Assembly (NCBI RefSeq): GCF_009914755.1
Contig: NC_060926.1
DNA length: 64,000 nt
Reading direction: 5' to 3' (one strand)
Source of the DNA: the human T2T-CHM13v2.0 reference genome, Homo sapiens
Of this stretch, positions 19,990 to 45,870 are shown piece by piece. The notes under the pieces are model-generated. The model saw nothing but the letters and a program-made list of their open reading frames with translations, did no database searches and was not told the DNA's origin. The translations under genes were made by a program, and so were the position numbers. The number at the start of each line of letters is the position of its first letter. Within the stretch, counting starts at the first letter, position 1.

Positions 19990-20015
19990 ATGTCTATATA
20001 TTTCCCCATTCACTG
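19990..20015 (+). CDS. LBH: LBH coding exon 1 (MSIYFPIH + first 2 nt of Cys9)
   Basis: ATG at 19990 preceded by in-frame TAG at 19981; no upstream ATG in the inferred 5'UTR; donor TG|GTGAGT at 20016. Confidence 0.95.
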
Positions 20016-22655
20016 GTGAGTACCCTGCGCCTGCGGCGGGCGTCTGTCTCGCGGCGGTGGCTGCGGGCCCGGGCGCCTGCTTCGTGCCGGCTCCGGGTGC
20101 GAGGGCAGCCGGCGGCGCGGGCGCTCAGCGCTAACCCGCCGCCCGAGCCCGTGCAGGAGTCAACGTCAAGGTTGCAAAGGTGGGGGTGGGGGGAGGGGGT
20201 GCTGAGAACATCCAGACAAAGGACGTGAACTCGGAGCCCTCACCTAAGTGACGGCCGGAGGGTTTGTATTGGTTGGCGGGGGAGCCAGGGGTCACGTGTG
20301 AATCCCCCCCAATGAAACCACCCTATGCGGAGAGCTGCAGGAGGCGCGCGCCCCACTTGGCGCAGGGGGGCTCCTGCTCTTCCCGGGCCCCTCCTCTTTT
20401 TCTTTTTGTTTGCATGCAAGTCTCAACGTCGAGGCCGGCAGCAGCGGGGCTGAGCTGGTGCGGCCGCAGGGTTTGCAGAGCTCCGGGGGGGTGGGGGGCG
20501 GGAAACGCTCTCCCCACACGTAACCCCACTAAAGCCACAAGCAGCAGGGCACGCGCTGCAGCCTCTCAACCCCTGCCCTCTCCACCGCCCCTAAAAACCG
20601 ACGCACATTGGTGGGGGCCGGGACTGGGAGGAGCCGCCTTCGCCGTGCTGAAGGGGAAGGAGCCCGGGCCGGGCGCGGGGCGTCGGAGGTTTGCCCCGGA
20701 CTGGGGATCGGAGCCGGGAGGGATGCAGAGAGAGGCAGGCCCCTGACTGCTGGGACTTCCTTGCTGGCAGTTTCTTCCTTCCTGCTCTGGGTTAGAGGAG
20801 AAGCGGCCGGGGGCGAGCGCCGGCAGCCCCGGAGCGCGCTCTCAGGTGCGGACGTGGGGAGCTCGGCCCCGAGTCTCCGGCAGGCGCTGAGCGAAGGGAA
20901 AACCGGCGCAAGCCGCGGCGGGGTCCGGCCTGGCCCAAGAAGCGGAAAGTTCATGCTTCTCGCTTCAACTTTTCGGGCCGGCGCCACAGCCCCGAGCGAG
21001 GAAGAGCCGCCCCTACGTCAGACTCTTCACCCTGCGTGCGCTCTTCTGGCTCCTTTCTTTGGAGGTCGCCAGCAGCCTTTCCAAGACCCGGGAGGAAACT
21101 GCCTTTGCAGGGCCCAGCTCCCGAACCTAAACTTGCCGCAAAGCCCCGCATCTTCTGTTAGTCTCCCTGCCCCCATCCGTCCCAGCCTGGCAGTGTTTAG
21201 AGAGGGGACTGAACTTCCCTCTCTCAACAGTTCAAGTTCCCCCACCCCGAGGCTTGTGTACCCTTCTTGTGGGTGCCCCTCCCTTGCCTCTCCCGTGGTG
21301 TGTGAGCAGCTAGGTGCCTTATTATAGGTGAAGCTTTGAAGGCTGTTGGAGGCTTTGTGCCTTTGGCTGCTCAAAATTTGCCAAGGTGGGTGTTTGGACC
21401 CATTAAGAATATTATGAGAAATTAAGGTTTAAGTTTATTTCATCGATTAGCACTTTGCAGCTTGCAGTGCTTTTATGCAGACATTAGCCCTTAACCTAAC
21501 TGTGAGTTATGCACTATTAGCATCAGAGTAACAGACAAACAGGACACTTGTGGCTCAGAGAAGTTACAGGACCTGTTCAAGATCACACAGTTCTTGAGGG
21601 GCAGAGCCTAGAACCTATTGCTTCTGTTTCTAAATCCAGTGTCATTTCTTATCTATGTAGTAACCATACAATTGAAGAGGCATCTGGTACCCCTGTTTCC
21701 TTAGATACTGTCCCTCAAAAGACTCCTCCATATTTTTGTTTTAAACCATGTGCACAGGCACGATGGTGGAAAGCATTGGGTGCTGTGTAGCAGGTACCTG
21801 TATTTGGTGCTTATGTTCAGCATTATGTGCACGGGATCCTGTATGTGCCCAGAGTTTGTGCAAGGATAAGGGAATATTCGTATCCTGCTTAGAGAGTACA
21901 AGGCACTTTCACATGTCAGCCATTGGTGGGCCAGCTTGGCCCCTCTGGAAATTTCCTTTGCAGTCAGAGTCGGGTATCCTTAAGGCTTTTAATCCAGGGG
22001 ATGTTTTTCAAGCTGTGAGCATGCAGCTGCTGTGTCTGGGGCTAGAGAAAGGGGATGGATGGCAGATGTGAAACTTGCAGAAAAGCTGACCCCTTGGGGC
22101 TTTAAGTGGAACATTTTGCCAAAAGGAGCACCAGAGAGACAAATTTAGGAAAGCTGTATGATTGGACTTTGTTTCCCTCCAGTTGACCTGTTATTGTTAT
22201 TGTGTATTAATAATATATAGAGTTCCCCTTTGGAAAGTTCATGTGAGGATTATTTTTATTCTTAGTTGGAGAAGTGAAGGGAGATGTGGTTGAATTGGTT
22301 TTAATATAGACAGATGGACTCAGCTACCTACTGTTTTGGTTTCTCTGGTTCTGTCATTTAAAGAAACATTCAGGGTCCCTCTGTGCCAGTGGGGACTAGA
22401 GTACAGGAGAGGAGGGAAGAGGTTTGCCAGAGAGGTCTGCAGACAATGGGCTTTGTCTGTTGCGGCTGAGCCCTGGGGCTGTGGGCTTGCAAGGCGCTTC
22501 CTCAGGGTGTGAGCTTGTTTTGCTGCAAGTTCTGTTTTGAACACCTCTCTTCCTGTCTCCAGACAGTCCCCTGATCCCACAGCAGTGAATGCATGAAGAG
22601 TTAGGAATGTGAAAGCGCGTGTGTTTGTTGACTTTTGGTCTGGGTTTCTTGGCAG

Positions 22656-22758
22656 CCCCGACTATCTGAGATCGGCCAAGATGACTGAGGTGATGATGAA
22701 CACCCAGCCCATGGAGGAGATCGGCCTCAGCCCCCGCAAGGATGGCCTTTCCTACCAG
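22656..22758 (+). CDS. LBH: LBH coding exon 2 (C-PDYLRSAKMTEVMMNTQPMEEIGLSPRKDGLSYQ)
   Basis: Acceptor ttcttggcAG|C; donor CAG|GTGAGT; 26+103 nt = 43 codons in frame; peptide recognised as LBH. Confidence 0.97.
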
Positions 22759-45681: not shown

Positions 45682-45870
45682 ATCTTCCCAGACCCGTCAG
45701 ATTTTGACCGCTGCTGCAAACTGAAGGACCGTCTGCCCTCCATAGTGGTGGAACCCACAGAAGGGGAGGTGGAGAGCGGGGAGCTCCGGTGGCCCCCTGA
45801 GGAGTTCCTGGTCCAGGAGGATGAGCAAGATAACTGCGAAGAGACAGCGAAAGAAAATAAAGAGCAGTAG
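45682..45870 (+). CDS. LBH: LBH coding exon 3 (IFPDPSDFDRCCKLKDRLPSIVVEPTEGEVESGELRWPPEEFLVQEDEQDNCEETAKENKEQ*)
   Basis: Acceptor cttttctttcAG|ATC; phase 0 matches exon 2; TAG at 45868-45870; total 105 aa. Confidence 0.98.
   Translation: MFPDPSDFDRCCKLKDRLPSIVVEPTEGEVESGELRWPPEEFLVQEDEQDNCEETAKENKEQ

What the first reader, a model, noticed from the sequence alone, without database searches (positions are those of the whole stretch)
45712..45798. LBH core contains a PxIxIT-like calcineurin-docking motif (P62-SIVVE)
Seen: ...RCCKLKDRL-PSIVVE-PTEGEVESGE-LRWPP... in a small, acidic, likely disordered protein. Established: calcineurin binds PxIxIT motifs (NFAT PRIEIT, VIVIT peptide PVIVIT, RCAN1 PSVVVH) and secondary LxVP motifs in disordered regions, and calcineurin-NFAT signalling controls heart-valve development and lymphocyte activation. 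Inference: PSIVVE closely resembles the RCAN1 motif, so LBH may be a calcineurin substrate, adaptor or competitive inhibitor, linking its cardiac and autoimmune associations. LRWPP as an LxVP variant and C54-C55 as an acylation site are weaker speculation. I do not know whether this has been reported.
Basis: partly seen in the sequence, partly recalled or inferred. Interest (0 to 1): 0.72.

Follow-up and report, generated by a model that had tools for sequence, protein, structure and literature searches.

The report
Calcineurin-docking motif in human LBH
A six-residue stretch in the small developmental protein LBH looks like, and probably is, a docking site for the phosphatase calcineurin, which would give this poorly understood protein a concrete biochemical partner.

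Summary
LBH exon 3 encodes P62-S-I-V-V-E67 (window 45736-45753), the protein's only match to the loose PxIxIT pattern. The pattern alone means little: it appears in 23% of shuffles of LBH and at 21,791 human sites.

Three results raise it above chance:
- A published calcineurin AP-MS table lists LBH as a high-confidence prey of full-length CNAbeta1 and CNAbeta2, with 0 spectra in 38 controls. That paper's text never mentions LBH.
- The motif is kept in every homologue examined, including distant LBH-domain representatives. It has a favourable Leu at -1 and an acidic residue at position 9.
- The AlphaFold2 model shows no stable fold there.

I put 0.65 on PSIVVE being a real PxIxIT dock. Motif dependence is untested.

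- LRWPP fails the LxVP pattern and lies too close to PSIVVE to reach the LxVP site on the same enzyme.
- C54-C55 is not kept in distant LBH-domain proteins.

The family core is two invariant islands, RLPSIVVEPT and VESGELRWPP. The second carries ESGE, a known KEAP1-docking motif.

Verdict: a new member of a known kind, of moderate to high interest.

The parts
19990..20015 (+). LBH coding part of exon 1 (start codon, residues 1-9 in part)
   Evidence: Annotation supplied with the finding. ATG at 19990 and a GT donor after 20015.
22656..22758 (+). LBH exon 2 (variable N-terminal region up to Q43)
   Evidence: AG acceptor and GT donor. The joined CDS is in frame (318 nt).
45682..45870 (+). LBH coding part of exon 3 (I44-Q105 plus TAG): the LBH-domain core and acidic tail
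   Evidence: Pfam PF15317 Lbh, E 7.1e-24, residues 1-61 of the exon-3 peptide.
45736..45753 (+). P62-S-I-V-V-E67, the PxIxIT-like core and proposed calcineurin A docking strand
   Evidence: Only loose-pattern match in LBH. Identical in 121 of 121 orthologue-level sequences. All 138 distant-representative rows that cover it still fit the pattern.
45730..45759 (+). R60-T69 (RLPSIVVEPT), invariant island 1: the core plus Leu at -1 and P7-T8; E70 (position 9) follows
   Evidence: Each position is 0.89-1.0 conserved in 109 distant domain rows. A hydrophobic -1 and an acidic or phosphorylated position 9 favour binding.
45769..45798 (+). V73-P82 (VESGELRWPP), invariant island 2: contains ESGE (45772-45783) and LRWPP (45784-45798). 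Role unknown; not an in-cis LxVP
   Evidence: 0.97-1.0 conserved in 105 of 105 covering rows. ESGE is a KEAP1-docking motif. The LxVP pattern is not met and the spacing is too short.
45712..45717 (+).
   Evidence: C55 is invariant and C54 variable in 52 orthologues. Neither is kept in distant LBH-domain proteins, where the commonest residues are Y and P.

Best explanation
PSIVVE (P62-E67), with Leu61 at -1 and P68-T69-E70 behind it, is a genuine PxIxIT-type short linear motif. It lies in a disordered stretch of LBH and pairs as a beta-strand with the PxIxIT groove on the catalytic domain of calcineurin A, independently of Ca2+. This tethers LBH to the phosphatase. What is shown: the motif and its invariance, the lack of a stable predicted fold, and co-purification of endogenous LBH with two full-length calcineurin A-beta isoforms. 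What is inferred: that the binding is direct and goes through PSIVVE. The consequence is also inferred. Most likely LBH is an RCAN-like occupant of the docking groove that competes with NFAT-type substrates or positions calcineurin near LBH's other partners. It may also be a substrate itself. Phosphorylation of S63 (R-x-x-S) or T69 (T-x-x-E) could tune the contact.
For: (1) Supplementary Data 1 of PMC8523714 reports FLAG AP-MS in HEK293 Flp-In T-REx cells, scored with SAINTexpress. LBH has spectra 13|6 with CNAbeta2 (fold change 95, BFDR 0) and 9|13 with CNAbeta1 (fold change 110, BFDR 0), and 0 spectra in 38 of 38 FLAG-GFP controls. These counts are of the same order as RCAN1 (averages 14 and 19). 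The lysis buffer contained 2 mM EDTA. By recalled knowledge, that fits Ca2+-independent PxIxIT docking better than LxVP docking. (2) PSIVVE is the only PxIxIT-pattern match in LBH and there is no LxVP-pattern match. If the binding is direct and motif-mediated, it is the only candidate. (3) Motif quality: 4 of 6 residues match the validated RCAN1 PSVVVH. The residues at positions 1-5 each occur in validated motifs seen. V/L/I at -1 raises affinity and an acidic -1 lowers it. An acidic or phosphorylated position 9 raises affinity in PVIVIT and calcimembrin, and LBH has L at -1 and E at position 9. (4) Accessibility: AlphaFold2 on a 52-sequence alignment gave mean pLDDT 58.6 and pTM 0.17, with no secondary structure at residues 55-105. 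(5) Conservation: PSIVVE is kept in 121 of 121 sequences and is invariant in 52 of 52 full-length orthologues, shark to human. LPSIVVEP is exact in 122 of the 138 rows that cover it among 50%-identity representatives, and all 138 still fit the pattern.
Against: No experiment links the binding to the motif, so the association could be indirect. LBH is not listed for the third bait, CNAbetaTrunc 1-423, at FDR<0.01. That bait recovered about 4-fold less PPP3R1, and the prey C16orf55 also fell (9.5-12.5 to 3), but RCAN1 rose. LBH is absent from the held supplements of three other calcineurin studies: PMC10163345 (1 file), PMC5216755 (3 files) and PMC13022171 (6 files including phosphoproteomics). 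There is therefore no evidence that LBH is a substrate. Glu at position 6 was not seen in any validated motif met in these calls, where it is T or H. The 'x' positions S63 and V65, and the whole 23-residue core, are invariant. That is more constraint than a PxIxIT needs, so other partners or a larger interface must also shape the sequence. The loose pattern is common. I could not see LBH's PSSM score because Wigington Table S2 is closed.
Confidence: 0.65

Rival explanations
1. The invariant core serves another partner, and calcineurin co-purifies indirectly or through a different surface. On this reading the resemblance of PSIVVE to PxIxIT is incidental: it is part of a larger binding or folding-upon-binding element.
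For: The invariance covers non-contact 'x' positions and 23 contiguous residues, R60-P82. Several LBH partners are in print and none is mapped to residues: CRYAB and vimentin, beta-catenin and mortalin. Island 2 carries an ESGE KEAP1-type motif.
Against: None of those partners appears among the calcineurin preys in the AP-MS table, so none offers an obvious bridge. LBH has no other calcineurin-type motif. RCAN1 shows that a true PxIxIT can sit inside a longer conserved element that folds on binding, so over-conservation does not argue against docking.
Confidence: 0.2
2. I64-V65-V66 is an IxI/V-type strand that inserts into the beta4/beta8 groove of the small heat-shock protein alphaB-crystallin (CRYAB). 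This is the reported LBH partner with the most support in print. The reading does not exclude calcineurin docking.
For: LBH and CRYAB are linked by co-IP with LC-MS/MS, FRET and co-fractionation. An I-x-V is present at residues 64-66. The IxI/V groove rule itself is recalled, not taken from a call.
Against: No mapping of the CRYAB contact exists. The IxI/V rule does not explain invariant P62, E67 or L61. I-x-[IV] is a very common tripeptide.
Confidence: 0.1
3. Chance motif and false-positive prey: there is no functional relation between LBH and calcineurin.
For: The pattern occurs in 22.6% of shuffles and at 21,791 proteome sites, mostly non-binders. There is a single AP-MS study, and LBH is absent from three other studies' held supplements.
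Against: LBH was found in 2 of 2 replicates with each of two baits and in 0 of 38 controls, at BFDR 0. The motif is invariant across the whole family.
Confidence: 0.05

Closest known systems
RCAN1 (regulator of calcineurin 1), PxIxIT 154-PSVVVH-159
   Same: Disordered and acidic. The motif is P-S-[VI]-V-V-x, with 4 of 6 residues identical. In RCAN1 the motif sits in a longer conserved segment that folds on binding, and the ASAVAA mutant loses about 145-fold in affinity. Both proteins are recovered with calcineurin in the same AP-MS table.
   Different: RCAN1 also has LAPP, SPPASPP and TxxP elements that reach the LxVP site and the active site. LBH has no TxxP and no LxVP-pattern match. RCAN1 binds CNAbetaTrunc more strongly, whereas LBH is not listed for that bait. 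There is no sequence homology outside the motif.
Calcimembrin / C16orf74 (CLMB)
   Same: A small, intrinsically disordered calcineurin-binding protein. Its PxIxIT is strengthened by a hydrophobic -1 residue and a negatively charged position 9 (LDVPDIIITPP(p)T).
   Different: CLMB has a composite LxVPxIxIT motif and proven lipidation. LBH's Cys pair is not conserved in the family and no lipidation is known. LBH has a fixed Glu at position 9 where CLMB has a regulated phospho-Thr.
FAM126A 512-PSISIT-517 and C16orf55 (recalled alias SPATA33)
   Same: FAM126A is a P-S-I-x-[IV]-x motif in a disordered tail, shown to bind calcineurin directly and found through the same AP-MS experiment. C16orf55 is a small prey whose counts across the three baits fall as LBH's do.
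   Different: FAM126A's motif was validated by an ASASAA mutant and BioID. Nothing comparable exists for LBH. That C16orf55 is SPATA33, and that it carries a PxIxIT, is recalled plus the title and abstract start of PMC8536318 seen in the listing.
KEAP1-docking E[ST]GE motifs (PGAM5, nestin and DPP9: ESGE; p62: STGE)
   Same: LBH E74-S-G-E77 is an exact ESGE and is invariant in the family.
   Different: No LBH-KEAP1 binding is reported. LBH has 0 occurrences in the review PMC11816071. Flanking requirements were not checked.

Membership tests
PxIxIT calcineurin-docking SLiM | Matches P[^PG][FILV][^PG][FILV][^PG] | tested here: met
   PSIVVE at residues 62-67 is the only match.
PxIxIT calcineurin-docking SLiM | Lies in a disordered, accessible, cytosolic or nuclear region | tested here: met
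   AF2: pTM 0.17 and no secondary structure at residues 55-105. The model was made on P0004, which differs from human LBH at 4 of 105 N-terminal positions. LBH is seen in the nucleus and cytoplasm. IUPred was not run.
PxIxIT calcineurin-docking SLiM | Favourable extended context (positions -1 and 7-9) | tested here: met
   Leu at -1 and Glu at position 9, judged against the rules. Glu at position 6 is unusual among the motifs seen.
PxIxIT calcineurin-docking SLiM | PSSM p-value <= 1e-4 in the Wigington model | not testable with these tools
   Table S2 of 10.1101/632547 is closed, and the Mol Cell version is not held.
PxIxIT calcineurin-docking SLiM | Protein physically associates with calcineurin | tested here: met
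   Read from a published table, not measured here: BFDR 0 with two baits and 0 of 38 controls.
PxIxIT calcineurin-docking SLiM | Binding is lost on motif mutation, with the CNA NIR groove mutant, or under PVIVIT competition | not testable with these tools
   This needs bench work.
LxVP calcineurin SLiM (for LRWPP) | Matches L.[ILV]P | tested here: not met
   LRWP has Trp at the V position, and no match exists in LBH.
LxVP calcineurin SLiM (for LRWPP) | Can reach the LxVP site while the PxIxIT is docked | tested here: not met
   There are 10 residues between E67 and L78, at most about 40 A when extended (my arithmetic). The sites are about 60 A apart.
LBH domain (Pfam PF15317) | Profile match above the gathering score | tested here: met
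   84.9 bits against a cut-off of 27, E 7.1e-24.
KEAP1 ETGE-type motif (island 2) | E[ST]GE tetrapeptide in a disordered region | tested here: met
   ESGE at residues 74-77. It occurs in 0.9% of 200,000 shuffles and is invariant.
KEAP1 ETGE-type motif (island 2) | Binds the KEAP1 Kelch domain | not tested
   No report was found. Of 81 papers holding LBH and KEAP1, 15 were listed and none by title concerns binding.

The most novel reading that the evidence does not exclude
The LBH domain as a whole is an ancient, vertebrate-wide calcineurin-docking module. Its defining 23-residue core, RLPSIVVEPT-xxx-VESGELRWPP, would be a PxIxIT strand plus a second invariant element. That second element either folds onto calcineurin next to the groove, as RCAN1's flank does, or recruits KEAP1 through ESGE. 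LBH and the other LBH-domain proteins would then be a previously unrecognised family of endogenous calcineurin regulators or adaptors, possibly bridging Ca2+/calcineurin signalling to KEAP1-CUL3 or to Wnt components.
Probability: 0.3. Interest if true: 0.85.

Novelty: new member of a known kind. Interest (0 to 1): 0.62.

Why it matters
LBH is called a transcription cofactor and Wnt regulator, and many papers tie it to heart development, cancer and autoimmunity. A 2026 paper states that the molecular mechanisms underlying its actions 'are quite limited', and no partner has been mapped to residues.

A calcineurin dock at the invariant heart of the LBH domain would give the family a concrete, drug-relevant partner, since calcineurin is the target of cyclosporin and tacrolimus. 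It would make the long-open question of what LBH does directly testable with one four-residue mutant.

It would also suggest re-reading LBH phenotypes through calcineurin-NFAT signalling. The physical association already sits unremarked in a published supplementary table.

Tried and rejected
**Ideas rejected**
- LRWPP as an in-cis LxVP: the pattern is not met and the spacer is too short.
- C54-C55 as a family-level acylation site: not conserved in distant LBH-domain proteins.
- TxxP active-site motif: none in LBH.
- SUMO-interaction motif at I64-V66: considered from recalled patterns only. It did not seem to fit and was not tested.

**Searches that gave nothing**
- PDB sequence search with the exon-3 peptide: 0 hits at E<=10.
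- The AF2 monomer gave no confident fold, so no fold search was run.
- Calcineurin studies whose held supplements lack LBH: PMC10163345, PMC5216755 and PMC13022171.
- The single held supplement of the KEAP1-MCM3 paper lacks both LBH and ESGE.
- The 'longer' homologue search listed only LBH-named proteins, so I cannot attach the names LBHD1 or LBHD2 to the distant representatives.

**Sources I could not read**
- Wigington Mol Cell, the two BioPlex papers, St-Denis 2016 and Yadav 2017: none is held.
- The supplement of the GST-LBH pulldown paper.
- LBH may be listed in any of these.

Full report
**1. The observation**

Window 45682-45870 (+) follows a polypyrimidine/AG acceptor and ends in TAG. 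Joining the three annotated coding parts gives 318 nt, or 105 residues plus a stop, with exon 3 starting in phase 0 at codon 44.

The key coordinates are:
- P62-E67 (PSIVVE): 45736-45753
- C54-C55: 45712-45717
- L78-P82 (LRWPP): 45784-45798

The protein is acidic, with 24 D/E against 11 K/R. PSIVVE is the only match in LBH to the loose PxIxIT pattern P[^PG][FILV][^PG][FILV][^PG], and LBH has no match to L.[ILV]P. The exon-3 peptide is the Pfam LBH domain (PF15317, E 7.1e-24). It has no relative among solved structures.

**2. Is the pattern more than chance?**

Not by itself. The loose pattern turns up in 22.6% of 100,000 shuffles of LBH, and in 3.6% if a V/L/I at -1 is also required. Wigington et al. 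(bioRxiv 10.1101/632547, passages read) count 21,791 such matches in the human proteome, 'almost exclusively' non-binders. Of these, 1,121 pass their PSSM and 409 pass all filters. LBH does not occur in that paper's main text.

**3. Conservation**

A word-indexed search with the exon-3 peptide found 268 proteins, of which 120 were listed, all carrying PF15317. Query included, 121 of 121 sequences carry PSIVVE with Leu at -1.

I aligned 52 full-length or near-full-length orthologue representatives, from sharks to mammals. R60-E67 and V73-E83 are invariant, and nearly the whole block I44-F85 is at least 90% conserved. Within orthologues, therefore, the motif is not a conserved island in a variable sea.

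A profile search of 1.84 billion 50%-identity representatives gave 250 hits at E<=1e-3, of which 150 were listed. I re-aligned the 143 new ones, which gave 145 domain rows:
- 138 rows cover the eight residues LPSIVVEP.
- 122 of those are exact.
- All 138 still fit the PxIxIT pattern. The variants are C at position 2; T or M at position 4; I or L at position 5; Q or D at position 6; and V at -1.

In the 109 most distant rows the flanks diverge and two islands stand out at 0.89-1.0 identity per position: R60-T69 (RLPSIVVEPT) and V73-P82 (VESGELRWPP). They are separated by three variable, mostly acidic or small residues. A lesser island, QIFPD, lies at residues 43-47. C54 and C55 are not kept there; the commonest residues are Y and P. 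I cannot attach paralogue names to these rows, because the representative library has no names and the 'longer' search listed only LBH-named proteins.

**4. Accessibility**

AlphaFold2 on the 52-sequence alignment gave mean pLDDT 58.6 and pTM 0.17. The only secondary structure was a five-residue helix at 50-54, and residues 61-80 had pLDDT 72-74 without structure. The first row was P0004, which differs from human LBH at 4 of 105 N-terminal positions. This pattern is what a conserved segment that folds only on binding looks like.

**5. Motif quality**

RCAN1's 154-PSVVVH-159 is a validated PxIxIT. Its ASAVAA mutant raises KD from 16 nM to 2,308 nM, and the 30 residues before it fold on binding (PMC7458460, passages). 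LBH shares 4 of 6 residues with it and has the more canonical Ile at position 3.

The flanking context in LBH is favourable:

| Position | What raises or lowers affinity | LBH residue | Source |
|---|---|---|---|
| -1 | V/L/I raises affinity; D/E lowers it strongly | Leu61 | PMC6728138, section 9 and passages |
| 2 | Ser occurs in natural motifs | Ser63 | PMC6728138 |
| 9 | Acidic or phosphorylated residues raise affinity | Glu70 (follows P68-T69) | PVIVIT; calcimembrin LDVPDIIITPP(p)T (PMC12612047) |

The one odd residue is Glu at position 6. I saw only T or H there in the validated motifs met in these calls. I recall acidic examples elsewhere but did not check them.

**6. Published interaction evidence**

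Searching supplements for LBH in calcineurin papers gave one hit. Supplementary Data 1 of Ulengin-Talkish et al. 2021 (PMC8523714) reports FLAG AP-MS in HEK293 Flp-In T-REx cells, scored with SAINTexpress against 38 FLAG-GFP controls.

| Prey | CNAbeta2 (avg spectra) | CNAbeta1 (avg spectra) | CNAbetaTrunc 1-423 (avg spectra) |
|---|---|---|---|
| LBH | 9.5 (13\|6; fold change 95; BFDR 0) | 11 (9\|13; fold change 110; BFDR 0) | not listed at FDR<0.01 |
| RCAN1 | 14 | 19 | 42 |
| PPP3R1 | 437.5 | 470 | 117.5 |
| C16orf55 | 9.5 | 12.5 | 3 |

- LBH had 0 spectra in all 38 controls.
- The truncated bait recovered about four-fold less PPP3R1. The small prey C16orf55 fell in step with that, while RCAN1 rose.
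- The lysis buffer held 2 mM EDTA.
- LBH has 0 occurrences in that paper's main text, which names only BRUCE, FAM126A and GSK3beta as motif-bearing preys.

Negative look-ups: LBH is absent from the held supplements of PMC10163345 (1 file), PMC5216755 (3 files) and PMC13022171 (6 files, 1.15 M characters, including phosphoproteomics). I did not establish whether that last paper's MS-IP lists are among the held files.

**7. Is it in print?**

- LBH plus PxIxIT: 0 papers.
- LBH plus calcineurin: 57 papers. Of the 20 listed, none by title or abstract concerns an interaction. The other 37 were not opened.
- LBH plus PPP3CA, PPP3CB or PPP3R1: of 25 listed, only one holds LBH, and it is a prognostic-signature paper.

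So the association exists as table rows, while the motif reading does not appear in the searchable text. Closed supplements and interaction databases may still hold more.

**8.

LRWPP does not fit the LxVP pattern. The PxIxIT and LxVP surfaces are about 60 A apart (PMC12612047). Ten residues separate E67 from L78, which is at most about 40 A when extended (my arithmetic). One LBH molecule therefore cannot fill both sites on one enzyme. The invariance of island 2 needs another explanation.

C54-C55 is not a family feature. No evidence bears on acylation.

**9. Rivals and extras**

Reported LBH partners are CRYAB and vimentin, beta-catenin and mortalin. None is mapped to residues, and none is in the calcineurin prey list.

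I64-V65-V66 could also serve as an IxI/V strand for the CRYAB groove. That rule is recalled, not taken from a call.

Island 2 contains an exact ESGE (E74-E77). This is the KEAP1-docking motif of PGAM5, nestin and DPP9 (review PMC11816071, Table 1 and passages; LBH has 0 occurrences there). E[ST]GE occurs in 0.9% of 200,000 shuffles of LBH and is invariant in 105 of 105 distant rows. LBH-knockout cardiomyocytes show lower NRF2 and higher KEAP1 under erastin (PMC11039335, passages). This is circumstantial.

**10. Verdict**

The most likely reading (0.65) is that PSIVVE is a working PxIxIT dock that tethers LBH to calcineurin A. The motif, its invariance, its predicted disorder and the co-purification are shown. 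Directness, motif dependence and the functional outcome are inferred.

This makes LBH a new member of a known kind. The bolder reading, that the LBH domain itself is a calcineurin-binding module, has a probability of about 0.3.

Noticed in passing
window 45772-45783 (E74-E77), within 45769-45798: The second invariant island of the LBH domain carries an exact ESGE. This is the KEAP1 Kelch-docking motif of PGAM5, nestin and DPP9. It occurs in 0.9% of shuffles and is invariant in 105 of 105 distant rows. LBH-knockout cardiomyocytes show NRF2 down and KEAP1 up under erastin. No LBH-KEAP1 binding was found in print.
   Followed up: partly
window 45730-45762 (R60-E70): There are possible phospho-switches around the dock. 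R60-x-x-S63 is a basophilic-kinase consensus with both R60 and S63 invariant, and S63 is PxIxIT position 2. T69-E-G-E is CK2-like, at position 8. In RCAN1 and calcimembrin, phosphorylation next to the motif changes affinity 20- to 27-fold. I found no LBH phosphosite data.
   Followed up: no
window 45682-45693 plus the last codon of exon 2 (22756-22758): A third, weaker conserved island, Q43-I-F-P-D47, spans the exon 2/3 junction. It is 0.76-0.98 conserved in distant LBH-domain proteins. Its function is unknown.
   Followed up: no
PMC8523714 Supplementary Data 1 (not the window): The same calcineurin AP-MS that recovers LBH also recovers GSK3A and GSK3B. A 2026 paper reports that LBH shields beta-catenin from GSK3-dependent Ser33/37 phosphorylation. 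Whether LBH, GSK3 and calcineurin share one complex is open.
   Followed up: no
proteins P0210 (1047 aa) and P0230 (1479 aa): Two long database proteins carry the LBH-domain core at their extreme C-terminus. These may be real fusions or gene-model artefacts; I did not examine them.
   Followed up: no
window 45712-45717 (C54-C55): C55 is invariant and C54 is often Y in LBH orthologues. In distant LBH-domain proteins the commonest residues at these positions are Y and P. Any role of the cysteines is therefore specific to LBH proper.
   Followed up: partly
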